Below, in pieces: positions 17,743 through 62,777 of a stretch of 64,000 bases of DNA. This stretch comes from a virus. Location of the stretch: IMG/VR virus record IMGVR_UViG_3300045988_182866, one strand, 5' to 3'. The first letter of the stretch is position 1. Each line of letters opens with the position of its first letter. The position numbers and the translations under genes are program-made. The notes under the pieces were generated by a model. That model was not told where the DNA came from. It made no database searches and saw only the letters and a program-made list of their open reading frames with translations.

Positions 17743-18672
17743 TTGTCTATGATAAAAAGACAAAGAAGATTTTTAAACACTGAAATTTTTATAGAATTAG
17801 CAAAACAAATTCATGGAAGCAAATATGATTATTCAAAAGTCAGCTATAAAAATGCTAATACAAATGTTTTAATAATTTGTCCTATTCATGGTTTGTTCAG
17901 TCAAAATCCAAGATCTCACCTAAAAGGGTTTGGATGTGCAAAATGTTCAAATCGAACAGCTAAGACTACTGAAGATTTTATCAAAGAATCAAAGCAGGTT
18001 CATGGAGACAAATATGATTATTCAGAAACAGTTTACGTCAATAATCACACAAATGTAAAAATCTTTTGCAAAAAAGATAAAATATTCTTTATACAAAATC
18101 CTAGAGTTCATCTTCAAGGAACGGGATGTCCCAAGTGTGCAAGAAATCAAAAGTTGACAACTAAGGGATTTATAGAAAGAGCTATAGCTATTCATGGTAA
18201 CAAATATGATTATTCTTCAGTAGTTTATCAATCACATGCCAAAAAGATTATTATAATTTGTCCTATCCATGGGCCTTTCGAGCAAAGAGCAAATGGTCAT
18301 TTGAACGGCAAAGGCTGTTATAAATGTGCAAAGAGTTATAAGCGTTCAAGGGGAGAGATTGAACTTTGTAAATTTATTAAATCAATTTATTCCGGTCAAG
18401 TTTTGGAGAATGACAGAACAGTTATTAAGCCAAAAGAACTAGACATTTATCTTCCTGAATTAAAGTTGGCTCTTGAATATAATGGCGAATATTGGCATGA
18501 TGAAACTAAGAAACGAAAACCGGGTTATCATAAAGAAAAGCAAAAAGCTTGTGAAAAGAAAGGCATTAAATTAATTGAGGTTTGGGATTCAGAATGGCAT
18601 GCAGATAAAGATAGATTTAAAAATCTTATTCAAGAAGTAATAAATTCTATTCAATCACCTTTAAAAATTTAG
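17743..18672 (+). CDS. Homing-endonuclease-like protein with three zinc-ribbon repeats and a C-terminal PD-(D/E)XK (Vsr/DUF559-like) nuclease domain.
   Basis: Three ~55-aa repeats of HGxKYDYSxVxYxNxxTxVxIICPIHGxFxQxPxxHLxGxGCxKC (C, H, C, C ligands), followed by ELDIYLPELKLALEYNGEYWHD...GIKLIEVWDSEW. A paralog lies at 33432-34409. Confidence 0.6.
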   Translation: MSMIKRQRRFLNTEIFIELAKQIHGSKYDYSKVSYKNANTNVLIICPIHGLFSQNPRSHLKGFGCAKCSNRTAKTTEDFIKESKQVHGDKYDYSETVYVNNHTNVKIFCKKDKIFFIQNPRVHLQGTGCPKCARNQKLTTKGFIERAIAIHGNKYDYSSVVYQSHAKKIIIICPIHGPFEQRANGHLNGKGCYKCAKSYKRSRGEIELCKFIKSIYSGQVLENDRTVIKPKELDIYLPELKLALEYNGEYWHDETKKRKPGYHKEKQKACEKKGIKLIEVWDSEWHADKDRFKNLIQEVINSIQSPLKI

Positions 18673-31379: not shown

Positions 31380-33290
31380 ATGAAAAAGACTCAACAAGTA
31401 CAAACTCAGTCTGTTGGCGCTGCTGTTCAGCAGAACAAGCAGTTCTATCAGAACTGTGTGAATAAGTGGAAGAAGCTGCTCGTTTCTGAACACGTTGCTC
31501 CTATTGAAAATAAGCATACGCGTGCCGTTACAGCTGTTCTTCTTGAAAACCAGGCTAACGCCCTGATGGAAGATATGAACCCGAACAGCTCCAGCATTTG
31601 GGGTGCCAACGCCTCTTTTGGTGGTGCGATTACTCAAGGCGATACCTATGCGAAGGGCGACAATCGTTTACCGAAGATTCTTCTTCCGATGATTCGTCGT
31701 ACGTTCCCGGAACTTATTTCCAATGAAGTTGTCGGTGTCCAGCCGATGTCCGGACCTGTTTCCCTTGCGTTTGCTATTCGTTATCGCTATGACCAAGGGC
31801 CTCTTCATGAAGCTCGTTCTTCCGGTACGCTGACTAAGCCGCCTACGGCTGGACCTCAATACGGTGTGAATACTTTCCGTGCCGAAGATACTGCCAATCC
31901 TCCGGCTCCTGCGGATATGAAGCAGCTTGAAGCTACGGTTAAGTCCCCTGGAACTGAAATGGGTTATAACTACCTCGACACTTCCTTTACTGGTCGTCGT
32001 AACAACCTCTTTAACCGTACGATCAATAAAGAAACGGGTGCTCCTTATACCGATGCTGATATTGTAACCACTTGGAATGCTTCTGATGCTGGTGCTACCT
32101 ATCGGATTAAGGCTGTTGCCGACCTTGTGATTATCTCCGGAGCTACTCCTGATGTTGAATTCACATTGTCCGACGGTACAACCAAGTATACAATTCTTGA
32201 CCATGATGAAGGTAAGAAAGCGATTGCTGCTGCGAATGCTCTCTTTAAGGCTACCCACATTGCCGGTGGTAAGTTTACATTCTCTGATCAGGACCTCGGT
32301 ACTGCCGCTCTCTTGGGTGACTATGAAGCTACTGGCCGTATTCCTCGTACGAAGTTTACCTTCGAGAAGAAAGCTGTTGAAGCTGGTACCCGCCGTATCG
32401 GTACCTCCTGGACGCTTGAACTCGAACAGGATATTCGTAACATGAACGGTATCGACATCGAACAGGAAGTTACTTCCATGATGTCCTACGAACTTCAGGC
32501 CGAAATTGACCGTGAAATGATTGTTCGTATGCTCTATGCCGCTCTTTCTGCTAATGAATATTCCTATTGGGATGGTTCTAAGGCTGATGCTCGTTGGATG
32601 GGTGAACGTGACCGCGCGTTTTATCAGTTCATCATTCAGATGGCTAACCGTATGGCTGTTCGTAACCGTCGTGGCCCAGCTAACTTCATTATCGCTACTC
32701 CGGATGTCTGCTCCTTATTGGAAACGCTTCCTCAGTATGCTATTATGGAAGTTAACGGTACGATCTCTACGGATAGTTCCGGTATTGCTAAGGTTGGTAC
32801 AATCGGTAATGGCCGATTCACTGTCTTCCGTGATACCCGTACGCCTGTTCAGAATAATTCCTGGATGAATAATTCCTGGGATAATCAAGGACAGTATACC
32901 ATTGGTGGAGAAGCTCGTACTCAGGGTATTCCGGACTTTGCTCTACTTGGCTATAAGGGTAGCGAATACTGGGACGCAGGCATTCTGTTTTGTCCGTACA
33001 TCCCAATACTCCTGCAAAGGGTTGTGGATCCTGTGTCGTTTGAACCTCAGGTTGGTTTAATGACCCGATATGGTGTTGTTGATAACCTTTTTGGCGCCAA
33101 TCTCTATTATCATGTCGTATTAATCGATACGCTCGGAAATAGCTTGCCGCCGTCTGGCGCTCCTGCCAATAACTGGCCTGGAACATTCCCGAATGGTTCC
33201 GCTCTTACTGATGTTCGTCAGCAAGGTGGTTATCCGGTTCAGGTTACCAACACTCCTGAAAATCCGGTTAATACGAAGCCTATTGCTTAA
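31380..33290 (+). CDS. Major capsid protein (T4 gp23-like).
   Basis: RLPKILLPMIRRTFPELISNEVVGVQPMSGPVSLAFAIRY, GPANFIIATPDVCSLLETL and GYKGSEYWDAGILFCPYIPIL...FEPQVGLMTRYGV align with gp23 (MGMVRRAIPNLIAFDICGVQPMNSPTGQVFALRAVY, GEGNFIIASRNVVNVLASV, GYKGPNEMDAGIYYAPYVAL...FQPVMGFKTRYGI). Codon usage has higher GC, typical of a highly expressed gene. Confidence 0.9.
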   Translation: MKKTQQVQTQSVGAAVQQNKQFYQNCVNKWKKLLVSEHVAPIENKHTRAVTAVLLENQANALMEDMNPNSSSIWGANASFGGAITQGDTYAKGDNRLPKILLPMIRRTFPELISNEVVGVQPMSGPVSLAFAIRYRYDQGPLHEARSSGTLTKPPTAGPQYGVNTFRAEDTANPPAPADMKQLEATVKSPGTEMGYNYLDTSFTGRRNNLFNRTINKETGAPYTDADIVTTWNASDAGATYRIKAVADLVIISGATPDVEFTLSDGTTKYTILDHDEGKKAIAAANALFKATHIAGGKFTFSDQDLGTAALLGDYEATGRIPRTKFTFEKKAVEAGTRRIGTSWTLELEQDIRNMNGIDIEQEVTSMMSYELQAEIDREMIVRMLYAALSANEYSYWDGSKADARWMGERDRAFYQFIIQMANRMAVRNRRGPANFIIATPDVCSLLETLPQYAIMEVNGTISTDSSGIAKVGTIGNGRFTVFRDTRTPVQNNSWMNNSWDNQGQYTIGGEARTQGIPDFALLGYKGSEYWDAGILFCPYIPILLQRVVDPVSFEPQVGLMTRYGVVDNLFGANLYYHVVLIDTLGNSLPPSGAPANNWPGTFPNGSALTDVRQQGGYPVQVTNTPENPVNTKPIA

Positions 33291-33314
33291 TAGGTTAAGC
33301 TAACCAAAACTTTA

Positions 33315-33352
33315 AAAATCCCGATGAGAATTGATCTCATCGGGATTTTTAT
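33315..33352 (+). terminator. Rho-independent terminator after the MCP gene.
   Basis: aaaatcccgatgaga/tctcatcgggatttt stem followed by a T-run. The ORF-track ATG at 33324 lies inside this hairpin and is unlikely to be a real start. Confidence 0.6.
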
Positions 33353-33431
33353 TTTATACCTGTCCAAACCACCTATTATTTTTCAGACATTTATTAAATT
33401 AAAAAAAAAGAATTTAATTTTAATTTATAAA

Positions 33432-34409
33432 ATGCCAAAGAAGCTTTCGCAAGAAGAATTTATTGAACGATGTAAAAAGAAACATAATAATTATTACAGT
33501 TATGATAAAACAGTTTATACTGGTATGAGCAATGATGACTATATTATTGTAACTTGCCCTATTCATGGTGACTTTAAACAACTGGCTGCCGGACATATAC
33601 GAGGAAAAGGCTGTAAAGATTGTGCCGGAACCATTACCAAAACTACTGAACAATTTATCATAGACGCCAGAAAAGTTCATGGAGATGAATATGATTATTC
33701 AAAATCAAAATATATTAATGCAATGACATATATTGAAATCATTTGTCGAAAACATGGTTCATTCTGGCAAAAACCTAATACTCATTTAATCGGCAAAGGA
33801 TGTTTTGAATGTTATGGCTCTAAAATGCTAACACAGGAAGAGTTTATCAATCGCTGTATTGAAAAACATAATGGGTTTTATATCTATGACAAAACAGTTT
33901 ATACAGGTTGTAATTATACAATTACCATTACTTGTCCTGTCCATGGCGATTTTCAACAAAAAGCAGGAGCCCATTTATATGGGCAAGGATGCAGTCAATG
34001 TGCTCATTTAATTTCTACTCAAGAGCTTGAACTTAGAGAATTTCTCGGAACAATTTATGAAAATGAAATGATTTTTAATTCAAGAGCTTTTATTAAGCCC
34101 AAAGAATTAGACATTTACCTTCCTGATATAAAAACTGCCTTTGAATATAATGGGAATTATTGGCATGCTCTATATGAAGAAAATGATCCAGGGTACCATG
34201 ACTATAAAAGGCAACTTTGTAAAAATGCCGGAATTACTTTAATTGAAGTATGGGGAAATGACTGGACTGAATTTAATAAAGAAACCAAAAATGAAATTAA
34301 AGATTTTTTCTCAGCAAAAAGGTTAAAAGAGTATAAGCATATACAGATAAGCAATGCCGAAGAAGCAAACATTAGAAGAATTTATCAAGAAATCAAATAT
34401 TGCCCATAA
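33432..34409 (+). CDS. Homing-endonuclease-like protein with zinc-ribbon repeats and a PD-(D/E)XK nuclease domain; paralog of 17743-18672.
   Basis: Starts MPKKLSQEEF. Three CPIHGDF...GxGCxxC repeats, then ELDIYLPDIKTAFEYNGNYWHAL...GITLIEVWGNDW. The ORF track extends the start to 33324, inside the terminator. Confidence 0.6.
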   Translation: MPKKLSQEEFIERCKKKHNNYYSYDKTVYTGMSNDDYIIVTCPIHGDFKQLAAGHIRGKGCKDCAGTITKTTEQFIIDARKVHGDEYDYSKSKYINAMTYIEIICRKHGSFWQKPNTHLIGKGCFECYGSKMLTQEEFINRCIEKHNGFYIYDKTVYTGCNYTITITCPVHGDFQQKAGAHLYGQGCSQCAHLISTQELELREFLGTIYENEMIFNSRAFIKPKELDIYLPDIKTAFEYNGNYWHALYEENDPGYHDYKRQLCKNAGITLIEVWGNDWTEFNKETKNEIKDFFSAKRLKEYKHIQISNAEEANIRRIYQEIKYCP

Positions 34410-35004
34410 TTTCAAGTACAACTATGATAAATCAATTTATATCAACAAACAAACAAAAGTAATCGTAATATGCCCGGAACATGGAGATTTTGAGGTTACT
34501 CCAGGCGCTCATTATATTTTAAAAAGCGGATGTCCAGAATGTGCAAAAATATCTCGTTCCAAAACAAAATCAAAAGGATTAGAAAAGTTCATTAAACAAG
34601 CTAATCTAAAGTGGAATAGCTTTTATAATTATTCCAAAGTCAACTATATCAATAATTATACTAAAGTAGAAATTATTTGTCCAATTCATGGTTCATTTTT
34701 TAAAGATCCTAGATCTCATATTGACCCACAAAGATATGGAGGCTGCCAAAGCTGTTCAAAAGAAAGACTTAGCAAAATAATATCTAAAGTTCAGCAGCAA
34801 AAACCAAAAGGGACAAATAGAGAAGCTTTTATTGACTATTGTAATGGCATTCATAATAACAAATATTCTTATGATAAAATGAATTATGTGAATATGATGA
34901 CTCCAATTGAAATCATATGTCCTATTCATGGAACTTTTACTCAAGATTGTTTCTTTAGACCAGAAAAAATAGATATACAAAAGAAACTCTTGAATTTTGC
35001 TTAA
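34354..35004 (+). CDS. Truncated paralog of the homing-endonuclease-like family: zinc-ribbon repeats only, no nuclease domain. It may be a decaying copy.
   Basis: Starts MPKKQTLEEF, like the upstream copy, and overlaps that copy's 3' end in another frame. Two CPxHGxF...GCxxC repeats and a third incomplete one (CPIHGTF only); then the ORF ends. Confidence 0.4.
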   Translation: MPKKQTLEEFIKKSNIAHNFKYNYDKSIYINKQTKVIVICPEHGDFEVTPGAHYILKSGCPECAKISRSKTKSKGLEKFIKQANLKWNSFYNYSKVNYINNYTKVEIICPIHGSFFKDPRSHIDPQRYGGCQSCSKERLSKIISKVQQQKPKGTNREAFIDYCNGIHNNKYSYDKMNYVNMMTPIEIICPIHGTFTQDCFFRPEKIDIQKKLLNFA

Positions 35005-35213
35005 TAAAATAAAGAGTAGAGGCTATAATGGTGTAGCCAATTATTAAACATAATAAACTAATTTTAATAATTTTTAATAAAATTAGAAACCATGACAATT
35101 TGCTCATTTAATAGTAACTTTTTCAAATTCAAACCTGATTTTGATCTCGGATTCAAATATGATTTTGAACTCGAATTCGAATTTTAAATTATTCATTAAA
35201 ACAATTTAACCTT

Positions 35214-35255
35214 AAAAAAGGCTTAGGCAGAAACTAATCTGCCTAAGCCTTTTTA
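35214..35255 (+). terminator. Rho-independent terminator.
   Basis: aaaaaggcttaggcag/ctgcctaagccttttt stem followed by a T-run. Confidence 0.55.
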
Positions 35256-35295
35256 TTTTAAGCGCAGTCTAATCATCTGCCTATCTAAAGTAATT

Positions 35296-35301
35296 TAAAT
35301 A
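35296..35301 (+). promoter_or_regulatory. Late-promoter-like TAAATA element.
   Basis: atttaaatattcatattATG. Confidence 0.3.
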
Positions 35302-35309
35302 TTCATATT

Positions 35310-36644
35310 ATGCAAAAAGATGTTACGCAAGGCAAAAGTTATTGCCTCACTGTTTATTCTGTTCCATGTAAAGTAACAGCAATTGGTGAAAATAATATAG
35401 AATATACTCTATTAAATGTTTCTGAAACTGGACAATATTTGTTTATTGCTCCTACTTGGAAAGTTAATATTTCTCAAGATGACGCATCTATCGTTGAAAC
35501 TTTTAATTTAGCCGGAACCGGTAAAGTTGGCGGATCTGGTTCCGGCTCTGACCCAACTTATGGATTTTTAAAAATTATATTTGTCGATGCTCTTCCTCCT
35601 ATTTCTGAAGCAAAAGAAAATACTTTATATTTTGTTCCTAAAAATGGTTCAGCCCCTGATAATTATGATGAATATATTTTTGACCCGGTTAATCAACAAT
35701 TTGAATTAGTAGGTCAAAGTGCTATCGATACATCTGATTTTGCAAAACTTTCCTCTACAAATATCTTTTTAGCTCCTAATACTTTTAATGAAATTATTAC
35801 TTTTAAAAAGGGCTTAAAAGTTTCAGAATCTGGACCTGTAATTACATCAAATGATACCACTCTTAATTTGCCAAACACTAGTACACCTTTATTAAAAGCA
35901 CAAGGTCTAATTTTAACTGGAGTAAGTACATTTAATAATGAAATAAGAGTTCCTACTATAGCTGGTTTAACTTCAACACCAATTAAGGTAACTAGTGCTG
36001 TTAATTTTAATAAACCGATTAAATTTAATGATACCATACGGGTTGAAACCGGGAAGATTGACCCCGGCAAGTTCGGCAACACCTGGACGTTCGGCTCGCT
36101 GATTGATTCCCCCACGACTGCCGACAACAACAATCACCGGTTGTGCTGCAAATCCACCTCCGACAACGGGGCCTACATCATCTACCACGAGCGGGTGATC
36201 AACGGCGCATGGATGAAAGATAAGATTATTCCCGCCTGCCAGTTCGATTTTACCTGGCACAACGACGCTTCCATTCTTGTCAAAACCCCCACCAAAGCGG
36301 AACAGGCTGCCAATAAGAATTATGTAGATACCCAAATAAGTACAATTTCTCAGTTTGATTCTTCAAGTGATCAAACTATTTCCGGTACTTGGAAATTTTC
36401 TAAGCCTTTAAAAATTACAGAAGCACAACTTACAGATGAAGCTGTAAGTAAAGGTTATGTTGATGAGACAATTCAACAAAATCTCAATACAACATTAGAA
36501 GGTGTTATTAAGTTTGTTTCCATGACAAAAGCTGAATATAAAGCATTAGAAACAAAATCACCGTCAACCATTTATCATTTGACTGATGTTTCTATGTGGG
36601 CTATTGGTGACCAAGAGATTGTTACATCGAACATGCCTGCATAA
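35310..36644 (+). CDS. Tail fiber or collar-fiber-like protein containing a high-GC in-frame mosaic segment.
   Basis: Tail-fiber repeat signatures AANKNYVDTQI and DEAVSKGYVDETIQ; Gly/Ser-rich linkers. Residues encoded by about 36036-36315 come from a roughly 55% GC patch. Confidence 0.55.
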   Translation: MQKDVTQGKSYCLTVYSVPCKVTAIGENNIEYTLLNVSETGQYLFIAPTWKVNISQDDASIVETFNLAGTGKVGGSGSGSDPTYGFLKIIFVDALPPISEAKENTLYFVPKNGSAPDNYDEYIFDPVNQQFELVGQSAIDTSDFAKLSSTNIFLAPNTFNEIITFKKGLKVSESGPVITSNDTTLNLPNTSTPLLKAQGLILTGVSTFNNEIRVPTIAGLTSTPIKVTSAVNFNKPIKFNDTIRVETGKIDPGKFGNTWTFGSLIDSPTTADNNNHRLCCKSTSDNGAYIIYHERVINGAWMKDKIIPACQFDFTWHNDASILVKTPTKAEQAANKNYVDTQISTISQFDSSSDQTISGTWKFSKPLKITEAQLTDEAVSKGYVDETIQQNLNTTLEGVIKFVSMTKAEYKALETKSPSTIYHLTDVSMWAIGDQEIVTSNMPA

Positions 36645-36696
36645 TAAAACAATTTAATTTTATAACTGTATGATGCTAATTTAAATAAAGGTAATT

Positions 36697-37005
36697 ATGG
36701 CTTTACCTCCAACATTTAAAGTAGATGTCTTTTCCGATGTAGGTTGGAAAACAAATCAATTTGCATTAATTGCAGAAGCTTCAACTTACGATGAAATGAA
36801 AGTTGCAATTACAAATAATGTAAAGGGAAAAAAGACAATCGATGAAACGCCTAAACCGGCTAGTCTTTCTCTTCGAGTACATTGTTATGATGGTGTTGCA
36901 ACCTTTGATTTCGATCAAACTGATGAGGGAGCATTCACTTTAAAATTTTCTGTTTGGGCTGAAATCGGTTTTCAAGCAGAAATTACAACTTTAATTAATT
37001 CTTAA
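36697..37005 (+). CDS. Hypothetical protein, 102 aa.
   Basis: ORF only. Confidence 0.35.
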   Translation: MALPPTFKVDVFSDVGWKTNQFALIAEASTYDEMKVAITNNVKGKKTIDETPKPASLSLRVHCYDGVATFDFDQTDEGAFTLKFSVWAEIGFQAEITTLINS

Positions 37006-37006
37006 G

Positions 37007-37267
37007 ATGTCAGTTTCTGAAGATGAGTTATTGGGTAAATTTATCGATCGCTACATGAAAAAAGCGATCGATAATTTAATTTTTAAACTAGAATCCAAGT
37101 ATAATGTTGAATTAAGTGAAAGTTCAACTTTAGAAGTTGTATTATTAAGTTCCGATTTTATTAATCGAATTTCTCAAGTAATTGAAAGTGAACAATTAAG
37201 AGAACCTGAAGCATTTGAGAATGAACCAAATGACCAATCTGGAAATTATCGATATAAAAAATACTAA
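37007..37267 (+). CDS. Hypothetical protein, 86 aa.
   Basis: ORF only; packed 1 nt after the previous gene. Confidence 0.35.
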   Translation: MSVSEDELLGKFIDRYMKKAIDNLIFKLESKYNVELSESSTLEVVLLSSDFINRISQVIESEQLREPEAFENEPNDQSGNYRYKKY

Positions 37268-37280
37268 TAAATATTAATTA

Positions 37281-37505
37281 ATGAATACTAATGGTTTAAG
37301 ATTAGATGAGCATGGTCGAGTTGTTCTTTGCGGAGATAAGATTTGCTGTGCTAATTTAGAAAGATGTGGAGACGGTAGGTATAAACTTACCGATGACAAT
37401 GGTAATTTCTGCTATATTACTGCTCAAGAAGCTGCATTAATGGAAGCTGGAATTAAAGCTTGCGATAATCAACCCGTAGTTAAAGAACAACTTATTTTAG
37501 GCTAA
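37281..37505 (+). CDS. Small Cys-rich protein, 74 aa.
   Basis: CGDKICCANLERCGDG... may bind metal. Confidence 0.3.
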   Translation: MNTNGLRLDEHGRVVLCGDKICCANLERCGDGRYKLTDDNGNFCYITAQEAALMEAGIKACDNQPVVKEQLILG

Positions 37506-37506
37506 T

Positions 37507-37836
37507 ATGTATTACGGTATTGATGGTCTTACTGAAATTATAGAAGAGATGCTTAATGATGAACCATCTCAAATGAGTGACACTGAATCTCTAGTTTATA
37601 ATTTTATTCAAAATCCTTATATAAGTCGGTTAGTTCGAAGTGGAGATGGCATTGAGATTAATAAATCTCCTGTTCGGGGAACTAATGTTGAAATGATTTT
37701 TAGATCTTTAAATTCCGACGGTAAAACAAAAATTAAAAAACGGGATATTGAGTATGCAGTTCTTGACTTATTGGCCGATGACAAAATCAAATTTGCCCGT
37801 ATGAACGGCGGATTCTTTTTGGTTCCTCGAGAATAA
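37507..37836 (+). CDS. Hypothetical protein, 109 aa.
   Basis: ORF only. Confidence 0.35.
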   Translation: MYYGIDGLTEIIEEMLNDEPSQMSDTESLVYNFIQNPYISRLVRSGDGIEINKSPVRGTNVEMIFRSLNSDGKTKIKKRDIEYAVLDLLADDKIKFARMNGGFFLVPRE

Positions 37837-38126
37837 TGACTGAATTTTTTGCAGCATTAGGTATAGCCTTAATTATTAAACAAGGACGAATCTTCAAAGA
37901 AGTTCGTTCTTTTTTAATTTCTAAATTTCCAATATTTCAAGATTTCTTTTCTTGCTTAATGTGTATTGGATTTTGGACTGGCTTATTTATTGGAATCATT
38001 ACTGAAAAGTCTTTAATAGATTTAATACTATTCAGCTTTTCTTGCTCATTTTTTGGGCTAATATTTCAAACAATTTTGACTTTCCTTGAAAAGATATTTT
38101 TAAAATACTTTAAAGATATTTCTTAG
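37836..38126 (+). CDS. Small membrane protein, 96 aa.
   Basis: Two or three hydrophobic helices (ALGIALIIK..., CLMCIGFWTGLFIGIIT..., LILFSFSCSFFGLIFQTIL). Confidence 0.35.
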   Translation: MTEFFAALGIALIIKQGRIFKEVRSFLISKFPIFQDFFSCLMCIGFWTGLFIGIITEKSLIDLILFSFSCSFFGLIFQTILTFLEKIFLKYFKDIS

Positions 38127-38195
38127 ATTAGAATAAAATGAAAGTGGTTAACTCTATTAAATGTAAATTTAATCTTATAAATCAAATTTAGAAAA

Positions 38196-38435
38196 TTGGA
38201 GTTAATCTTTCAAAATCACCTCAACTTTTTAAGAATAAAACCAATATTAAAGAAAATGGACTTTTTTAATAAGTGTTCTTGTAATCCTCGGACTGTTACT
38301 AAATGGACAGTTTATAAAGAAGGTTCTTATTTCATTTATAAATGTACTGAATGTGGAAACTCCTTTAAACGTCCAGTTAATTGGGAAACAATCCAGAAGG
38401 ATAAAATGAAAAATTTAATGAAGCATGGAAGATAA
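38196..38435 (+). CDS. Small zinc-ribbon protein, 79 aa.
   Basis: CSCN...18 aa...CTECGN, two CxxC-like pairs. Confidence 0.3.
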   Translation: MELIFQNHLNFLRIKPILKKMDFFNKCSCNPRTVTKWTVYKEGSYFIYKCTECGNSFKRPVNWETIQKDKMKNLMKHGR

Positions 38436-38811
38436 AAAAACTTTAAAGGTTAAATGTTTTATTACCGGAGAAGAAAGTATTTTTTCTGGTGATTATTTGA
38501 ATAAACTTATTGAAAGATATGGTTCAAGAGAAAATATTTTAAAATATTACATTACATATCGAGCTAAGAATTTCCTTTTTAAAGGATATACAATTCCAGA
38601 AATCAGGAAAATTCTTCTTTTAAAGAAGACTGAACTTGAAGATCCTTCTTCTCCTAAAGGAATCGAATTAATAAAATATTGGCAAGACCAGAAAAATCTC
38701 AAGGTTAAGTATAAAATGAAAGATCAAAAAGATAATGTTTCTTTCATTAAAACTGATCCGGAAGTAAAAGATTTTATTAACAATTGGATTAAATCTAAAA
38801 AAATAGAATAA
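38425..38811 (+). CDS. Hypothetical protein, 128 aa.
   Basis: ORF only. Confidence 0.35.
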   Translation: MEDKKTLKVKCFITGEESIFSGDYLNKLIERYGSRENILKYYITYRAKNFLFKGYTIPEIRKILLLKKTELEDPSSPKGIELIKYWQDQKNLKVKYKMKDQKDNVSFIKTDPEVKDFINNWIKSKKIE

Positions 38812-38865
38812 AAAATTAAAATTTTATCACTGATTTATTATCAATAATTTTTTAATTTATATACA

Positions 38866-38915
38866 TTTTTAAAATTGATAAGTCCCTTAAAATAAGGGAC
38901 TTATCAATTTTTAAT
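38866..38915 (+). terminator. Rho-independent terminator.
   Basis: gataagtccctt/aagggacttatc stem with loop aaaat, followed by a T-run. Confidence 0.55.
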
Positions 38916-38950
38916 TTGAAAAAATTTTATACATAAATACAAAATACACT

Positions 38951-41824
38951 ATGTTGAATGGATTAGAAGATGTATTAAAGGCAGATACAGCAAAGAGTAC
39001 AAAAATTGATTGTACACAGTCAGTAGAAGAATATATTAATAAAAGTGACTGGCGTATATTTGCTAATGCTAATACAGGATATAGTAATGCTGGATTAGTA
39101 AATGGACTAGCTGGTAAAGTAATAGCCAATTATTGGTTAGATAAAGTTTATTCAAAAAAAGAGGGTGATGCACATAGAAATGGCGATTATCACATTCATG
39201 ATTTAGATTGTTTAAGTGGTTATTGTTGTGGTCATGATTTACAACGATTATTAAATGAGGGTTTTAATGGTGTAGTGGGAAGAGTAGGTTCAAAAGCACC
39301 AAAACATTTTAGAGAAGCTTTATATCAAATGGCTAATTTCATTGGTATTTTACAAGCTGAATGGGGTGGTGCTCAAGCGTTTAGTTCTTTTGATACATAT
39401 CTTGCACCTTATGTTTTTTTTGATATGTATTATAGTGGTTTAACTTATAAAGATATTAAGAAAGCCATCTTAAATTTCATTTATAATTTAAATGTGCCAT
39501 CACGCTGGGGACAATCTCCGTTTTCAAATATTACAATTGACTGGATTGTCCCTAATGATATGTCTGCCCAATATCCTCTAAGAAATGATAAGAATTATTT
39601 TAAAACAATTTATGAAGATTTATCAGATGAAGAAAAAACAAAATTTAGAACGACAGTTATTGAAGAACTTAAAAAACGTTTAGAGAATATAGAAAATTCT
39701 ATAGATAGTCTATTTGATAAAATAACATATAAGTTATTTCAAAAAGAAATGAATCTTATTAATAAAGCTTTTTATGAATGTTTAAACGAGGGCGATATTA
39801 ATGGATTACCTTTTACATTCCCAATTCCTACAGTTAATATTACAGAAAATTTTGATTGGGATGGAGAAAATACTGATCTTCTTTTTGAAAATGCTGCAAA
39901 ATATGGATCTTCTTATTTCCAAAATTTTATTGGTTCGCAATATAAACGAGATGAAAATGGTAATTTAGTTCCTGATCCAAATGCTTATAGTCCAAATGAT
40001 GTACGAAGTATGTGTCCACTAACTGGTGATACGGAAGTATTAACACTTAGTAACAGAGGTATTAGTAAGACACAAATAGTACATTTAAATGAAAATAGCC
40101 ATAAAGTATTTTCTAATGGAAATTGGTTTAATTTTAAACGTATCGAAATTAAGCCACAAAAAGTATATGAAATTAAATTATCAAATGGTACTTCTATAAA
40201 AATGGGAGAACATCATTTACAACCAATATATGGTAGTACTAAAGAATGTAAAGATCTTAAAGTTGGTGATTTAATACCATTTAATAGTCAAATAATTAAT
40301 TGGGACAAAGCTGTTGGTGATTATCATCTTGGTTATGCAATCGGTGCTTATTATGGTGATGGCTCAACCGATGGTAATACTGTAATATATTCTCTTTCTG
40401 TTGATGAAAAAGATAATATAACTGAAGAAAAATTACGAAAATTTTGGACTTCTAATGGGTATCATGTTAAAACAATAAATGTTAACAATGTTCGTTCAAT
40501 AGTGGTTACTGGAAATGCTTTTAATTTAATTGGACGATTTTGTAGTGGTAATAATGCTCTTACTAAAGGTATTCACAGTTTAGCATTTAGTTTATCAGTA
40601 GATGCTCGTCAGGGAATTATAGATGGATATATTGCTACAGATGGTAATAAAGATCGCAGGCGAATTAGTACTTCATCCCAAGCAATGGTTAATGATTTAT
40701 TAACTTTGTTTACTTTACAGGGTAAAAAAGCTTTATTATCATCTATAGATAATCGTGAAAATCGTCTAGGAAGTAATCCAAATTATATTGTTTCTTATCC
40801 TGAAAAAGACAATTATAGTGATTTTTATCAAACTATTGATGGTATAATATATTTTATAATTAAAGAAATAAAAGAAATTCCGCAACAAAAACTTTATTGT
40901 ATTGAGGTTGATAATGAAGATCATACATTTGTATTAGGTAACGGGATGATTACGCATAATTGTCGTCTTCAATTAGATAAGCGAGAATTACGAAAACGTG
41001 GAGGAGGCTTATTTGGTTCAGATGCACAAACTGGCAGCATAGGCGTAGTAACAATTAATATGGCCCGCCTTGGCTATCTTTACAAAGGTAACTTTCCGCT
41101 TCTTAAGAAAAAACTTATTCATTTAATGGAATTGGCTAAATCGACTTTAGAAAAAAAGCGTTCTTTTATTAATGAATTATATCTAAGAGGATTATACCCA
41201 TATACAAGACGATATCTTAAAGGCTTTAATACATTTTTTAGTACAATCGGCGTTAATGGAATGAATGAAATGGTTCGTAATTTTTCAAATGACGAATATG
41301 ATATTACTTCATATGAAGGCCAGAAAATGTGTATAGAACTATTAGATTTAATTCGCTCTAAAATGTCTGATTATCAAGAAGAAACTGGAAATCTTTATAA
41401 CCTTGAAGCTACCCCGGCAGAAGGAACAACTTATCGATTTGCCAAAGAGGATATTAAACGTTTTCCGGACATTATTCATGCTGGTACTGAAAAAGAACCT
41501 TACTATACAAATAGCTCTCAGCTCCCGGTAAATTTTACGGATGATCCCTTTGAAGCACTTGATAAGCAAGATGAGCTTCAATGCAAATATACTGGTGGTA
41601 CAGTAATCCATTTATATATGACAGAAAGACTTTCTAATGCAACAGCTTGTAAAAATCTTATAAAAAAGGTACTTACAAATTATCGCTTGCCATATATATC
41701 TATAACTCCAACATATTCTACATGTCCAATACATGGTTATATTCCTGGAAATCATGAATTTTGTCCAAAATGTGACCAAATAATTTTAGAAGAATATGCT
41801 AAAGAAATTGATTTTAACGAATAA
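38951..41824 (+). CDS. nrdD: Anaerobic ribonucleoside-triphosphate reductase NrdD (class III RNR) containing an in-frame intein. It lacks the glycyl-radical C-terminus, which is on a separate ORF.
   Basis: Extein features: VRSM|CRLQLDK...GGGLFGSDAQTGSIGVVTINMARLGYL (NrdD finger-loop Cys motif, GGLFG, TGSxGVVTxNLxR) and a C-terminal Zn-ribbon-like CPIHGY...CPKC. The gene is followed by nrdG. Intein at 40013-40960. Confidence 0.8.
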   Translation: MLNGLEDVLKADTAKSTKIDCTQSVEEYINKSDWRIFANANTGYSNAGLVNGLAGKVIANYWLDKVYSKKEGDAHRNGDYHIHDLDCLSGYCCGHDLQRLLNEGFNGVVGRVGSKAPKHFREALYQMANFIGILQAEWGGAQAFSSFDTYLAPYVFFDMYYSGLTYKDIKKAILNFIYNLNVPSRWGQSPFSNITIDWIVPNDMSAQYPLRNDKNYFKTIYEDLSDEEKTKFRTTVIEELKKRLENIENSIDSLFDKITYKLFQKEMNLINKAFYECLNEGDINGLPFTFPIPTVNITENFDWDGENTDLLFENAAKYGSSYFQNFIGSQYKRDENGNLVPDPNAYSPNDVRSMCPLTGDTEVLTLSNRGISKTQIVHLNENSHKVFSNGNWFNFKRIEIKPQKVYEIKLSNGTSIKMGEHHLQPIYGSTKECKDLKVGDLIPFNSQIINWDKAVGDYHLGYAIGAYYGDGSTDGNTVIYSLSVDEKDNITEEKLRKFWTSNGYHVKTINVNNVRSIVVTGNAFNLIGRFCSGNNALTKGIHSLAFSLSVDARQGIIDGYIATDGNKDRRRISTSSQAMVNDLLTLFTLQGKKALLSSIDNRENRLGSNPNYIVSYPEKDNYSDFYQTIDGIIYFIIKEIKEIPQQKLYCIEVDNEDHTFVLGNGMITHNCRLQLDKRELRKRGGGLFGSDAQTGSIGVVTINMARLGYLYKGNFPLLKKKLIHLMELAKSTLEKKRSFINELYLRGLYPYTRRYLKGFNTFFSTIGVNGMNEMVRNFSNDEYDITSYEGQKMCIELLDLIRSKMSDYQEETGNLYNLEATPAEGTTYRFAKEDIKRFPDIIHAGTEKEPYYTNSSQLPVNFTDDPFEALDKQDELQCKYTGGTVIHLYMTERLSNATACKNLIKKVLTNYRLPYISITPTYSTCPIHGYIPGNHEFCPKCDQIILEEYAKEIDFNE
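40013..40960 (+). mobile_element. Intein (316 aa) with a LAGLIDADG homing endonuclease, inserted in nrdD.
   Basis: Block A CPLTGDTEVL starts with Cys; LAGLIDADG motifs LGYAIGAYYGDGS and IIDGYIATDGN; C-terminal block G ...FVLGNGMITHN followed by the +1 Cys (CRLQLD). The length is a multiple of 3 (948 nt). Confidence 0.8.
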
Positions 41825-57566: not shown

Positions 57567-57681
57567 GTGTATTCTTATTATAAAGGAAATCTTAAACTAT
57601 TAGGGTGATTACTGATAATAAAATTTAATATACAGTATATTGTATATTGTTTCTTATTTTTTATAGAGAAAAACTATTCTT

Positions 57682-57734
57682 GAAAGTCCGTTTGCCCTAT
57701 ATCAACAAACTTGATTTAAAAAATATTGATTTGC
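57682..57734. repeat. Left copy of a roughly 52-bp perfect inverted repeat (extended imperfectly to about 90 bp).
   Basis: gaaagtccgtttgccctatatcaacaaacttgatttaaaaaatattgatttgc; its reverse complement occurs at 58378-58429. Confidence 0.8.
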
Positions 57735-57770
57735 ACTTTATTGATTTATTTTTAATAAGTTATAATAAAA

Positions 57771-57810
57771 GCACAGATTGGAGGAAGTTTTATTTTCCTC
57801 CAATCTGTGC
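57771..57810. terminator. Bidirectional terminator hairpin.
   Basis: gcacagattggagga/tcctccaatctgtgc stem flanked by an A-run and a T-run. It lies just downstream of the 57838-58233 minus-strand ORF. Confidence 0.5.
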
Positions 57811-57837: not shown

Positions 57838-58233
57838 TTACAATCTGCTGACTGTATATATAATCGGTTCAAACCTTCTGACTTGTTCAATTGAATTATA
57901 AACATAAATTAAATGTTCAGAAACAAGTTTATTCCTCATAATATAATCTATAAATGATTTGCAGATATCTGTTCTGAAAGAAAACAATGATTTATATTGT
58001 CTTTTGCCTATGCTTATTTTTCTTGAATAAAAAGGATTTTGAATATAAATCGCAAGTTCAGCCTTACTTGCGATATAGCTTAAGCCAGGACCTGATACCT
58101 TATCAATATTTTCTATCATTCTACAAATATCAATAAACAGTTCCTTTAATTCACCATTAAAAAATGAATCAGTTATTTTAATAATATATTGACTTTGGCC
58201 TAATTGCATTTTCAGTTGGTAACTGTTATTCAT
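57838..58233 (-). CDS. Hypothetical protein X (131 aa), the only ORF enclosed by the inverted repeats.
   Basis: ORF with no HuH or recombinase motif that I can see. Confidence 0.4.
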   Translation of the reverse strand: MNNSYQLKMQLGQSQYIIKITDSFFNGELKELFIDICRMIENIDKVSGPGLSYIASKAELAIYIQNPFYSRKISIGKRQYKSLFSFRTDICKSFIDYIMRNKLVSEHLIYVYNSIEQVRRFEPIIYTVSRL

Positions 58234-58377
58234 ACTTTTATAATATATTATATCTTGATCCTATCAGGTGAATATACCGTTTGAGGTACTTTTTACAATA
58301 TAAAGAAATTAACTGCTTAAAAAATAGCCTAAAATATGATGGTCTTATATAACTTATTGATTTTAAGTCAATAAAGC

Positions 58378-58429
58378 GCAAATCAATATTTTTTAAATCA
58401 AGTTTGTTGATATAGGGCAAACGGACTTT
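58378..58429. repeat. Right copy of the inverted repeat.
   Basis: Reverse complement of 57683-57734. The ORF-track peptides LPYINKLDLKNIDL appear on both strands as artefacts of this repeat. Confidence 0.8.
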
Positions 58430-58964
58430 TCAGATAAAAATCAAACTGAATTGTCTTCTTCTTAATGAATCAAAACTATACCATAATTGGTGCAATCAAT
58501 ATTATTTTTTAGTATAAACGATAATTAAAACTGAATTACTGTAAAAATTGTTCTTATATAATGAGAACAATACGGTATTATACAATTTTAATTATATGGT
58601 AAGCCTTAGCAAATACAGGTGATTATTCAAAGGTGGTAAACTTAGGGAAAATTAAATATAATACCTTGATAATCAATGGTGCTTCATCTCGGGTGAATTA
58701 TATTCTGAACCTTAATAGCTATAGGTGATTGGTCGATTATAATAAAAATGCACCTCCAAAGGTTATGTAAAATATTATTATAAAAGTGTACCTGATAACA
58801 ATCAATGTTAAAAGGAACAATATGATAAGTCAATAATATAATAAAAGATGAAACATTTTTTATATCAGCAATTAAGGTTAGCACCTGATGAAAATGTGGA
58901 TTCAGTTATTATAAAAGTGTTGGCAATCAACAAATAAAACACAAACCACAAATAATATAATAAT

Positions 58965-59351
58965 ATGAAAGCAGCGGCAGATAAGAAGAATACTGAAGTT
59001 AAAGTCAGCATCAACAACGGCAATCCGTTTGTAATCATCATCCCTGTAGACAAGTCCGGTTATCAATCGCTTCAATCGGTTAAGACTAAGCAGTCTCCGG
59101 CAATTGAACTGGCTTGTGTCAAGGGTGAAATGGACAAGGTTGAAGAACTCATCGGGAAGATTACATCTAAGTATGAAGAACTTGTGAAACCTGCTCTGCA
59201 GGAGGCATTTGGAGATATTCCCCTCAGGTATACTGAAGCTAATACGTTGATGACCTTCCAGAAGGGAGAAGAAGTATATCAAGCTTACTTTGAACTGAAT
59301 ATGGAAGAACGTCCGGCCGGTGAGGAACTGGTTGTAACTAAGAAGAAGTAA
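58965..59351 (+). CDS. Hypothetical protein P2 (128 aa); paralog of 57162-57566.
   Basis: See P1. It has its own terminator at 59378-59418. Confidence 0.5.
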   Translation: MKAAADKKNTEVKVSINNGNPFVIIIPVDKSGYQSLQSVKTKQSPAIELACVKGEMDKVEELIGKITSKYEELVKPALQEAFGDIPLRYTEANTLMTFQKGEEVYQAYFELNMEERPAGEELVVTKKK

Positions 59352-59377
59352 ATCAAATCAGATAAATTATAACGGAA

Positions 59378-59418
59378 ACCCCTCCGACTGAGCTGAATCA
59401 GTCGGAGGGGTTTTTTAT
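59378..59418 (+). terminator. Rho-independent terminator.
   Basis: aacccctccgactga/tcagtcggaggggtt stem followed by a T-run. Confidence 0.6.
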
Positions 59419-60768: not shown

Positions 60769-61029
60769 TTAGCAATACTTTTGGATTTCTTTGTTGAAGC
60801 TTCCTACGAACTTGTTTCCGTTCAGGTCCCAGAGACTTATGTTGTCTCTCCCTCGAAAATCGGAAAGGATCTCTTTCAATTTGGCGGAACTGAACACCGA
60901 CGTTTCAAGCTTGCCGTTTTCGTCTTTGTACTGGATAAACCACCAGGGCTTGCCCTCCAGGAAAATATTTGCAGGAATCTTGCCGGTCAAGAAATAAACG
61001 TCAATATGACCAAGCGATTCCCTGCACAA
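60769..61029 (-). CDS. Hypothetical protein (86 aa, TTG start). It may be the frameshifted continuation of 61035-61367.
   Basis: Starts 6 nt after the upstream gene's stop, in a different frame. It is more protein-like than the overlapping plus-strand ORF 60754-61134. Confidence 0.3.
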   Translation of the reverse strand: MCRESLGHIDVYFLTGKIPANIFLEGKPWWFIQYKDENGKLETSVFSSAKLKEILSDFRGRDNISLWDLNGNKFVGSFNKEIQKYC

Positions 61030-61034
61030 ATTAC

Positions 61035-61367
61035 TCAGGAAGATTTGGAGTCCGCAATAAGATTTGAAAGAAGCGAGCTTAAGCTGCTTATACCAGACCT
61101 CGAAAGGAAAGTCGGCTTGCTGTTGTCCAAATAAGCCAGGACGCGATCATTTGCATCCTGAAGTACTCCGGTATTGGAAAGGATGAACTCCCGGTTAACG
61201 TTTTCAACTGAAAACATTCCGTCCTTGTTGGAAAATACCGGAGTATTCCAAAGGTAACTTAGCACCGGTTTTTCGTCTACCACGGCTTGTTTCAGAATAT
61301 CCTGGGGCAGGCTTTTGGTGATTTGCCGGATTTGAGAGATATTATTGACTTTTATTAAAAGGTCCAT
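61035..61367 (-). CDS. Hypothetical protein, 110 aa.
   Basis: ORF in the block with elevated GC. Confidence 0.35.
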   Translation of the reverse strand: MDLLIKVNNISQIRQITKSLPQDILKQAVVDEKPVLSYLWNTPVFSNKDGMFSVENVNREFILSNTGVLQDANDRVLAYLDNSKPTFLSRSGISSLSSLLSNLIADSKSS

Positions 61368-61392: not shown

Positions 61393-62001
61393 TTACAGAA
61401 GCTTGGAAACCAGGTCCGGAGAAAAACAGCCGATGAAAATTCCTTTCTGAATATCCCAGATCTTGACCGATTCGCCCAGCTTGATATTGCTCAGTATATC
61501 ACGGAAAGAATCGTCTTCATCTCCCGCCAGCATCGGTTCATTTTCAGTCAAAGAATTTTTCCTTTCAATATAGTACCGCCACTTTTTTTCCAAAACATAA
61601 ATGGCCTTGATAGTAAGTTCACCGCAAACAACCTTAAGCCTTTTCTTTACGTTATCTTCGAAAATCGACAAAGCATCGGCAAGCTCTTGGTAAGTCCAAA
61701 CACTAAAAAGCATTGTCTTATTAAGATAAACCTCAAATCCGGGGCTCCCGGAATGATTAGCACAATGACCAATTACCTTATCACAAGAATCGACAATATC
61801 CGTTTCTTTCAACTTAAGCAAATCCTCAAACGTCAGAATATATTGATATTTACTTGGCTTTCTGTTTGTCAGCTTATTGCGAAGAAACACCCTCGAATTA
61901 GAATTAGGCAATTTTAAGCACGGAGGCAATAAAATATTATCAGACTGGTTCTGAATCAATTCATTGAACAGTACGAAAATCTTTTTAACTTCTGGATTCA
62001 T
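61393..62001 (-). CDS. Hypothetical protein, 202 aa.
   Basis: ORF only. Confidence 0.4.
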   Translation of the reverse strand: MNPEVKKIFVLFNELIQNQSDNILLPPCLKLPNSNSRVFLRNKLTNRKPSKYQYILTFEDLLKLKETDIVDSCDKVIGHCANHSGSPGFEVYLNKTMLFSVWTYQELADALSIFEDNVKKRLKVVCGELTIKAIYVLEKKWRYYIERKNSLTENEPMLAGDEDDSFRDILSNIKLGESVKIWDIQKGIFIGCFSPDLVSKLL

Positions 62002-62007
62002 ATATTT

Positions 62008-62775: not shown

Positions 62776-62777
62776 AA

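What the first reader, a model, noticed from the sequence alone, without database searches (positions are those of the whole stretch)
36036..36315. A roughly 280-bp, roughly 55% GC, in-frame patch inside an AT-rich tail-fiber gene
Within the tail-fiber gene 35310-36644 (about 30% GC), the segment from about 36036 to 36315 is strikingly GC-rich, for example ccggcaagttcggcaacacctggacgttcggctcgctg. Third codon positions there are G or C, as in a high-GC donor. The reading frame is nevertheless preserved (…RVETGKIDPGKFGNTWTFGSLIDSPTTADNNNHRLCCKSTSDNGAYIIYHERVINGAWMKDKIIPACQFDFTWHNDASILVKTPTKAEQAAN…).

The 3' boundary falls inside the conserved tail-fiber motif AANKNYVD. That is consistent with homologous recombination at a conserved fiber motif, which would have imported a receptor-binding segment from a compositionally foreign source (high-GC host or phage). 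The patch also generates spurious stop-free ORFs on the minus strand (35714-36133, 35973-36335).
Basis: seen in the sequence. Interest (0 to 1): 0.65.

Follow-up and report, generated by a model that had tools for sequence, protein, structure and literature searches.

The report
Foreign high-GC cassette in phage fibre gene
A roughly 270-base stretch inside a fibre gene of an AT-rich, T4-like human-gut phage was copied, more than once and recently, from the fibre gene of an unrelated phage lineage with about 53% GC; this is a clean example of a known way phages swap fibre modules.

Summary
Window 36039-36311 has 55% GC against 30% around it, and GC at third codon positions is 0.76 against about 0.12. 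It is the most GC-rich 280-base stretch in the 64 kb window, and the reading frame is kept.

Fibre genes of an unrelated human-gut phage lineage (contigs of 83-90 kb, 51-55% GC) match the window only across 36024-36335, at 84.5-91.5% nucleotide identity without gaps. The patch composition is native to that lineage.

The patch is a nested mosaic. An outer shell (36039-36089 and 36252-36311) is shared with AT-rich sister phages and lies closest to donor group 2. An inner 162-base core (36090-36251) is 100% identical to a group 1 donor. A sister phage has the same shell but a different 149-base core, from another donor subtype and with other breakpoints. Other sisters carry an intermediate-GC allele or an AT-rich allele of the same domain.

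The outer junctions lie in conserved motifs: FNDT(I/V)RVETGKIDPG on the 5' side and AANKNYVD on the 3' side. The exact protein is encoded on 11 contigs, so an assembly chimera is unlikely. A diversity-generating retroelement (DGR) is not supported.

A role in receptor binding, and a host shared by the two lineages, are inferred, not shown. This is a new member of a known kind.

The parts
35310..36644 (+). Fibre-like gene of 444 aa, a putative tail fibre or receptor-binding protein, in an AT-rich T4-like phage
   Evidence: Intact ORF. Pfam Phage_tail_C (PF24243) hits aa 401-423 at 29.5 bits, above the 23.7 cut-off; there is a weak 'tail protein' hit to phrog_1197. The neighbouring gene 31380-33290 is a Gp23-type major capsid protein (E = 1.7e-78).
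36039..36311 (+). GC-rich patch (aa 244-334), bounded by the compositional change-points
   Evidence: 55.3% GC against 30.2% outside; GC3 0.76.
36024..36329 (+). Full stretch with nucleotide homology to fibre genes of the high-GC phage lineage
   Evidence: Ungapped blastn matches of 297-306 nt at 84.5-91.5% to L004-L006, L010-L014, L016-L020, L032 and L033. Nothing else in window 33001-39000 matches the donor loci compared; for L032/L033 only the gene itself was compared.
36090..36251 (+). Inner core: a recent gene-conversion tract from a group 1 donor
   Evidence: 162 nt are 100% identical to L012 (OMET01001834.1, locus GC 54%). The informative sites form one unbroken run of 23-31 donor-type sites, with breakpoints at 36089-36098 and 36245-36252; 0 of 100000 shuffles reach that run length.
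36039..36089 (+). Outer shell, 5' part: remnant of a separate, presumably earlier import
   Evidence: Identical to the AT-rich sister phages L009 and L015. Positions 36039-36078 are an exact match to group 2 donor L017.
36252..36311 (+). Outer shell, 3' part
   Evidence: No differences from L009 or L015, and 3 from L017 (36263, 36269, 36294). The group 1 donors L012 and L004 differ at 11-13 positions here.
36024..36068 (+). 5' junction motif FNDT(I/V)RVETGKIDPG, conserved in both phage lineages
   Evidence: Homology with the donors starts at 36024-36039. The AT-type allele of L002 loses homology with the window at 36009.
36306..36329 (+). 3' junction motif AANKNYVD
   Evidence: Donor homology ends at 36329-36335, and L002 homology resumes at 36303. 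The same 35-nt stretch (36296-36330) matches otherwise unrelated AT-rich phage contigs L007, L008, L023 and L024 at 88.6%.
35973..36335 (-). Stop-free antisense ORF of 120 aa, judged spurious
   Evidence: Listed. Equivalent antisense ORFs cover the homologous stretch in the high-GC loci. No independent support for a gene.
35714..36133 (-). Stop-free antisense ORF of 139 aa, judged spurious
   Evidence: Listed. It is extended by the GC-rich patch. No independent support for a gene.

Best explanation
The patch is a module of about 90 codons in a fibre-like gene. An AT-rich (31.5% GC), roughly 200 kb, T4-like human-gut phage acquired it by homologous recombination from the fibre gene of an unrelated phage lineage of 83-90 kb and about 53% GC.

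At least two nested events made the allele in this window. One import, presumably the earlier, used the conserved motifs FNDT(I/V)RVETGKIDPG and AANKNYVD as crossover points. It gave a 'shell' allele that is closest to donor group 2. A later gene conversion replaced the central 162 nt with sequence identical to a group 1 donor.

Sister phages show independent conversions with other donors and other breakpoints, so gene flow between the two lineages appears to be ongoing.

- **Shown:** the compositional anomaly, the donor lineage, the nested mosaic and its breakpoints, and replication of the allele in independent assemblies.
- **Inferred:** that recombination took place in a cell holding both genomes (co-infection, or a resident copy of the donor), probably using the T4-like phage's own recombination system.
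- **Also inferred:** that the module is a surface-exposed specificity domain whose exchange changes or tracks receptor recognition.
For: - **Composition.** Patch GC is 55.3% against 30.2% outside; GC3 is 0.76 against about 0.12. The donor fibre genes have GC3 of 0.68 along their whole length, with the same C > G > T > A order at third positions.
- **Donors.** High-GC loci from IMG/VR and from ENA human-gut assemblies match only window 36024-36335, at 84.5-91.5% nucleotide identity.
- **Sister phages.** The AT-rich sisters L001, L002, L009 and L015 are syntenic and 93-99% identical outside the patch.
- **Inner core.** There is a 162-nt exact tract with L012. Informative sites read 1...1 / 2 x 23-31 / 1...1, and 0 of 100000 shuffles reach that run.
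- **Independent event.** Sister L027 carries a 149-nt exact tract (36114-36262) with donor L006, with different breakpoints.
- **Allele classes.** Sister phages fall into shell, mosaic, intermediate and AT-rich classes.
- **Replication.** The exact window protein is on 11 contigs. L025 and L026, from different samples, are 100% identical in nucleotides over the gene.
- **Domain.** The module is predicted as a compact beta-rich unit followed by a helix over AANKNYVD, at moderate confidence (pLDDT 66.6, pTM 0.59). Amino-acid differences between alleles cluster in a few short stretches.
- **Literature.** Exchange of fibre and adhesin segments at conserved motifs is established in T-even phages (Tetart 1996/1998, as cited in PMC3157838).
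Against: - No donor is 100% identical over the whole patch; the best is L012 at 92.7% over 36039-36311. The shell's real donor has not been sampled: L017 is 88-89% identical to the shell alleles L009 and L015.
- No read-level evidence could be examined.
- The host of neither lineage is known, so co-infection is inferred only from the exchange itself.
- The fold of the module matched nothing, so a receptor-binding role is unproven.
- The gene's identity as a tail fibre rests on one short Pfam domain plus weak hits.
Confidence: 0.87

Rival explanations
1. Assembly chimera: the assembler switched between two co-occurring phages within a shared fibre motif.
For: Both lineages occur in human-gut metagenomes and share about 300 nt at 85-92% identity. 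Reads could not be inspected.
Against: - The exact 444-aa protein is on 11 contigs, 7 of them about 200 kb. L025 and L026, from different samples and different assemblers' k values, have the gene 100% identical.
- Sisters L009, L015 and L027 carry GC-rich patches in the same AT-rich context in other assemblies.
- At the inner breakpoints, the runs that are identical between the L009-like shell and L012 are only about 6-8 nt. That is far below assembler k-mer sizes.
Confidence: 0.02
2. Targeted hypermutation by a diversity-generating retroelement (DGR): the patch is a variable repeat rewritten from a template repeat.
For: - The segment is the most variable part of the gene among close relatives.
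- It contains AAC/AAT-rich stretches (DNNNH).
Against: - There is no second copy of the patch anywhere in the 64 kb, using blastn with word size 7 and the repeat finder.
- Differences between alleles are of all substitution types and many are synonymous T/C changes at third positions.
- Exact tracts of 149-162 nt are shared with another phage lineage.
- The segment is not at the C-terminus of the gene.
Confidence: 0.01
3. An ordinary, intrinsically GC-rich domain: the GC content is set by amino-acid composition, by a second coding layer on the minus strand, or by an RNA structure.
For: Two long antisense ORFs overlap the patch.
Against: - The shift is at third codon positions; GC1 and GC2 hardly change.
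- The homologous domain is encoded with GC3 of 0.0-0.33 in L002 and 0.07-0.47 in L003.
- Similar antisense ORFs occur all along the high-GC donor genes.
Confidence: 0.02
4. The direction or route differs: both lineages draw the cassette from a third, unsampled source, or the high-GC lineage is the recipient for some tracts.
For: - The shell allele has no sampled donor closer than about 89%.
- The intermediate allele (L001, 44% GC) has no identified source in IMG/VR.
- The donor fibre genes are themselves highly mosaic, ranging from 498 to 975 aa.
Against: - The patch composition matches the whole donor gene and its locus, and it is foreign only in the AT-rich phage.
- Exact tracts of 149-162 nt link the AT-rich phages directly to sampled donor subtypes.
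Confidence: 0.08

Closest known systems
Modular exchange in T-even distal tail-fibre and adhesin genes (g37/g38) by recombination at conserved motifs (Tetart et al. 1996/1998; Trojet et al. 2011, PMC3157838)
   Same: - A T4-type phage.
- A variable segment bracketed by short, highly conserved motifs.
- Crossovers within or next to those motifs.
- Several allele classes in otherwise near-identical genomes.
   Different: - There is no sequence similarity to gp37 or gp38, no glycine-rich motifs and no His boxes.
- The gene sits after the major capsid gene, not in a recognisable long-tail-fibre locus.
- The partner is an unrelated phage about 22 GC points higher, so the import is visible by composition alone.
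- Any effect on host range is untested.
Horizontal transfer of tail-fibre segments between unrelated phages (T4 g37/g38 C-terminal part replaced by sequences from another phage; P2, Mu, P1 and lambda fibre homologies)
   Same: Fibre gene segments are shared by phages of different families, which implies recombination in a common host. The T4 case is from PMC3157838; the P2 and lambda cases are from my own knowledge of the literature.
   Different: Here the tracts are short (150-300 nt), nested, repeated, and partly 100% identical, so they are very recent. Both partners are uncultured.
Diversity-generating retroelement (DGR) target genes in gut phages
   Same: A localised hypervariable segment in a phage fibre-like gene.
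   Different: There is no template repeat and no adenine-specific pattern. The variation is explained by sequence shared with another lineage.

Membership tests
Tail-fibre cassette exchange at conserved motifs (T-even g37/g38 type of mosaicism) | The gene encodes a tail fibre or adhesin | tested here: inconclusive
   Pfam Phage_tail_C scores above its cut-off at aa 401-423, and there is a weak phrog 'tail protein' hit. Donor homologues carry faint BppL_N hits. The full-length model is poor (pLDDT 43).
Tail-fibre cassette exchange at conserved motifs (T-even g37/g38 type of mosaicism) | A variable segment flanked by motifs conserved among otherwise unrelated fibre genes | tested here: met
   FNDT(I/V)RVETGKIDPG and AANKNYVD are shared by the AT-rich and the high-GC lineages. 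AANKNYVD is also conserved at the nucleotide level in the unrelated contigs L007, L008, L023 and L024.
Tail-fibre cassette exchange at conserved motifs (T-even g37/g38 type of mosaicism) | Recombination breakpoints fall in or next to the conserved motifs | tested here: met
   The outer junctions are at 36024-36039 and 36296-36335. The inner breakpoints, at 36089-36098 and 36245-36252, lie between the last shell-type and the first donor-type informative site.
Tail-fibre cassette exchange at conserved motifs (T-even g37/g38 type of mosaicism) | The exchange alters receptor or host specificity | not testable with these tools
   No cultured phage or host is available. The fold search gave nothing.
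Horizontally acquired segment (compositional island with an identified donor) | Composition deviates from the resident genome and matches the donor genome | tested here: met
   GC3 is 0.76 in the patch, about 0.12 in the rest of the gene and 0.68 in the donor gene. Donor loci are 51-55% GC.
Horizontally acquired segment (compositional island with an identified donor) | Close relatives of the recipient lack the segment or carry a different allele | tested here: met
   L002 has an AT-rich allele, L001 an intermediate one, and P0045 and P0059-P0074 lack the domain.
DGR variable region | A template repeat of the variable region in the same genome | tested here: not met
   There is no second copy in the 64 kb window. 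The remaining roughly 140 kb of the genome was not examined.
DGR variable region | Substitutions confined to template adenines | tested here: not met
   All substitution types occur, and many are synonymous C/T changes.
Intein, intron or homing-endonuclease insertion | An inserted element that is absent from homologues, with splicing or endonuclease motifs | tested here: not met
   The segment is homologous, codon for codon, to the same domain in all allele classes, and it has no Pfam hit.

The most novel reading that the evidence does not exclude
Two uncultured and abundant human-gut phage lineages share one bacterial host. One is a roughly 200 kb T4-like phage at 31% GC; the other is an 83-90 kb phage at about 53% GC. 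They keep a common pool of one fibre specificity module through frequent, ongoing gene conversion.

If so, the GC-discordant patch is a built-in marker that links the two to the same host, possibly a high-GC gut bacterium. There are two weak and conflicting host hints. The donor fibre's N-terminus is 28-38% identical to Akkermansia phage proteins. A short homologue sits in a Gastranaerophilales genome bin.
Probability: 0.35. Interest if true: 0.5.

Novelty: new member of a known kind. Interest (0 to 1): 0.4.

Why it matters
- **A resolved example.** Most evidence for fibre mosaicism comes from ancient, blurred events in cultured coliphages. Here the donor, the recipient, the nested events and the breakpoints can be read to within a few bases in uncultured gut phages. 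The 22-point GC difference labels every imported base.
- **Tempo.** The exact tracts show that exchange between very different phage types is recent and repeated.
- **Host link.** The exchange gives a testable link, a shared host, between two abundant gut phage lineages with no known host.
- **Engineering lead.** The two conserved motifs could serve as natural junctions for engineering this fibre family.

Tried and rejected
- **INPHARED phages.** blastn and tblastn of the fibre gene found no match. The major capsid protein is only 24-31% identical to cyanophage and Vibrio T4-like phages, so the phage has no cultured relative.
- **Bacterial and archaeal genomes.** Searches with the patch and with the donor fibre found no host or prophage source.
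- **IMG/VR.** Scans with the intermediate (L001) and AT-rich (L002) alleles found no source lineage.
- **Patch-only protein search.** It returned only short fragments.
- **NCBI names and records.** These gave no host. The window has no tRNA genes.
- **Structure.** The full-length model was poor (pLDDT 43). The patch-only model was moderate (pLDDT 66.6), but Foldseek against PDB and BFVD gave nothing below E = 0.15. The only PDB sequence hit was weak, a phage hyaluronidase at E = 0.0039.
- **DGR.** Rejected.
- **Amelioration.** The shell allele shows no AT-ward bias against L017 (10 against 17 sites). The intermediate allele does (42-51 against 16-23), which fits an older import or a donor of intermediate GC.
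- **Other GC peaks in the window.** These are explained by amino-acid composition or by a uniform codon bias, so they are not imports of this type.
- **Literature on Akkermansia phages.** The search gave nothing relevant.

Full report
**1. The observation**

The window is AT-rich, at 31.5% GC.

A two-state likelihood scan of 34001-38000 places the deviant segment at 36039-36311, with 55.3% GC inside and 30.2% outside. That is about 9 binomial SD. It is also the highest of all 280-base windows in the 64 kb (0.546; mean 0.315, SD 0.056).

The shift is almost entirely at third codon positions. GC3 is 0.00-0.30 along the rest of the gene and 0.65-0.93 inside the patch, while GC1 and GC2 stay put. 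Third positions in the patch are C 0.52, G 0.24, T 0.165, A 0.077. In the upstream part of the gene they are T 0.535, A 0.34, C 0.086, G 0.037.

The other GC peaks in the window are different in kind:
- The C-terminal tail of the T4-type portal gene (12225-12504) is rich in Gly, Pro and Glu, with GC3 of 0.20-0.25.
- The Gp23-type capsid gene is uniformly and moderately raised, with GC3 of about 0.4.

**2. Context**

The window belongs to a T4-like phage.
- It has a Gp23 major capsid protein (E = 1.7e-78) and a T4-type portal protein.
- It has an anaerobic ribonucleotide reductase (NrdD) carrying an intein.
- It has several DUF723-type homing-endonuclease-like ORFs.

It has no cultured relative. 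The fibre gene finds nothing in INPHARED, and the capsid protein is only 24-31% identical to cyanophage and Vibrio T4-like phages. Contigs carrying exactly this fibre protein are about 200 kb and come from human-gut metagenomes.

The 444-aa protein has a Phage_tail_C domain (PF24243, 29.5 bits, above the cut-off) at aa 401-423 and weak tail-protein hits. 'Tail fibre' is therefore plausible but not proven.

**3. Relatives of the gene**

A protein search found 135 homologues. Close relatives are near-identical outside aa 244-334 and most divergent inside it.

DNA of sister phages shows that the same domain comes in different compositions:
- The window has GC3 of 0.60-0.93.
- L001 has 0.33-0.53.
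- L002 has 0.00-0.33.
- The distant L003 has 0.07-0.47.

Outside the patch, L001, L002, L009 and L015 are syntenic with the window and 93-99% identical. L002 loses homology at 36009 and regains it at 36303. By amino-acid similarity, sister phages fall into four allele classes:
- a GC-rich 'shell' type;
- shell-plus-core mosaics, including the window;
- an intermediate type;
- an AT-rich type that is only 35-39% identical.

Some relatives lack the domain altogether. So the GC-rich segment is not a constant feature of this gene.

**4. The donor lineage**

Scanning IMG/VR and the metagenome collection with the 110-aa patch peptide returned, besides AT-rich sisters, 13 loci of 51-55% GC. They come from contigs of up to 83-90 kb from human-gut or human-microbiome samples. 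Group 1 is L004-L006, L010-L014 and L016; group 2 is L017-L020.

Their only nucleotide homology to window 33001-39000 is 36024/36031/36039 to 36329/36335. It is ungapped, 297-306 nt long, and 84.5-91.5% identical.

In these loci the stretch lies inside an 801-aa fibre-like gene; shorter variants exist, such as the 649-aa gene in L032. That gene has GC3 of 0.68 along its whole length, with the same C > G > T > A order at third positions. The composition that is foreign in the window is native there, which sets the direction of transfer.

The donor fibre ends with the same C-terminal tip motif as the window protein (...AEYAAL...TLYRITD). The two genes are therefore distant members of one fibre family that share only short motifs at the DNA level.

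**5. Nested mosaic**

Site-by-site comparison shows three parts.
- Positions 36090-36251 (162 nt) are 100% identical to group 1 donor L012.
- The flanking parts of the patch (36039-36089 and 36252-36311) are identical to the AT-rich sisters L009 and L015.
- Among donors, those flanking parts are closest to group 2; L017 matches exactly over 36039-36078.

With L009 or L015 as one parent and L012 as the other, the informative sites read as shell, then one unbroken run of 23-31 donor sites, then shell. The switches fall at 36089-36098 and 36245-36252, and 0 of 100000 shuffles reach that run length.

Sister L027 has the same shell but a 149-nt exact tract (36114-36262) with a different donor subtype (L006) and different breakpoints. 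L009 carries a shorter group 1 tract.

This indicates at least three separate conversion events on top of the import that created the shell. The shell allele shows no AT-ward drift relative to L017 (10 against 17 sites). The intermediate allele of L001 is strongly AT-biased relative to all others (42-51 against 16-23 sites). That fits an older, partly ameliorated import or a donor of intermediate GC. No source for it was found.

**6. Junctions**

The outer 5' junction lies in FNDT(I/V)RVETGKIDPG (36024-36068). The 35 nt around AANKNYVD also match otherwise unrelated AT-rich phage contigs at 88.6% (L007, L008, L023, L024). It is therefore a widely conserved fibre motif.

Exchange at conserved motifs is the pattern described for T-even tail-fibre and adhesin genes (Tetart 1996/1998, as cited in PMC3157838).

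**7. Artefact and rival readings**

*Chimera.* The exact protein is on 11 contigs. In two assemblies from different samples the gene is 100% identical in nucleotides to the window. Other assemblies carry sister alleles that are also GC-rich, in the same AT-rich context. At the inner breakpoints the runs shared between an L009-like shell and L012 are only about 6-8 nt, far below assembler k-mer sizes. Reads could not be checked.

*DGR.* There is no second copy of the patch in the window. Substitutions are of all types, and many are synonymous.

*Intrinsic GC or an overlapping gene.* The same domain is encoded AT-rich in L002. Antisense ORFs also overlie the homologous stretch of the high-GC donor genes.

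**8. What the module does**

This is the weakest part. A patch-only AlphaFold model is of moderate confidence (pLDDT 66.6, pTM 0.59). It shows five beta strands followed by a helix over AANKNYVD.... The full-length monomer model is poor. Foldseek against PDB and BFVD found nothing.

Differences between alleles cluster in a few short stretches, namely aa 254-259, 279-290, 300-306 and 311-314. That would suit exposed loops of a specificity domain. I therefore infer, but have not shown, that the module contributes to receptor recognition and that its exchange tracks a receptor common to both phage lineages.

**9. Host**

The host is unresolved. No bacterial genome carries the cassette or the donor fibre. 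There are two weak and conflicting hints:
- The donor fibre's N-terminal 130 aa are 28-38% identical to Akkermansia phage proteins.
- A short homologue sits in a genome bin labelled Candidatus Gastranaerophilales.

Recombination requires both genomes in one cell. T4 itself is about 15 GC points below its host (from my own knowledge), so a shared higher-GC host is conceivable.

**10. Verdict**

The phenomenon, fibre module exchange at conserved motifs between unrelated phages, is well known, so this is a new member of a known kind. Its value is the unusual resolution (donor, direction, nesting, breakpoints, recurrence) and the host link it implies between two abundant uncultured gut phage lineages.

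Noticed in passing
window 38951-41824 (+): The anaerobic ribonucleotide reductase NrdD (957 aa) carries an intein (Pfam Intein_splicing hit spanning aa 393-670; NRDD domain split in two). The homologous gene product in sister locus L001 is 751 aa, so the intein may be present in some phages and absent in others.
   Followed up: partly
window 33324-35004 (+) and 17743-18672 (+); loci L001, L002, L026, L027, L036: DUF723-type homing-endonuclease-like ORFs sit between the capsid gene and the fibre gene and form a repeat family within the window. This spacer varies a lot among sister phages: some have a TnpB-like gene (OrfB_IS605 / Cas12f1-like) just upstream of the fibre gene, which the window lacks, and some have DUF723-fibre fusion ORFs (P0012, P0016, P0030).
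   Followed up: partly
window 35310-36644; proteins P0006, P0010, P0059-P0074: The fibre gene is mosaic at other points too. Some relatives share the first 82 aa at 95-100% but have an unrelated remainder (522-564 aa). Others are 771 aa, with about 300 extra residues inserted before the last 70 aa.
   Followed up: no
window 59000-59400, 60800-61200 and 61400-62800: Moderately raised GC (0.39-0.46). The ORFs there have GC3 of 0.40-0.45, against about 0.2 for most genes, and none has a Pfam hit. These could be other acquired segments.
   Followed up: partly
window 31380-33290 (+): The major capsid gene is 47% GC (GC3 0.42), uniformly along its length, in a 31.5% GC genome. This looks like expression-linked codon bias or amino-acid composition, not a patch.
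   Followed up: partly
L032 1927-3666 and 14296-17950; L034 251-6017 and 17074-20928: The high-GC donor phage contigs carry one (L032) or two (L034) ParB_N-TAGT gene pairs. They also carry a cluster resembling sulfate activation: sulfotransferase, PAPS reductase, an EF-Tu-like GTPase and APS kinase.
   Followed up: no
window 57678-57791 and 58321-58434: An inverted repeat of 114 nt with 82% complementarity and arms 529 nt apart, flanking ORF 57838-58233 (-).
   Followed up: no
protein P0126 (NCBI DAB17659.1): A 166-aa partial homologue of the fibre lies on a 30.5 kb contig binned as 'Candidatus Gastranaerophilales bacterium HUM_18'. This is either a host hint or a binning artefact of an AT-rich phage contig.
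   Followed up: partly
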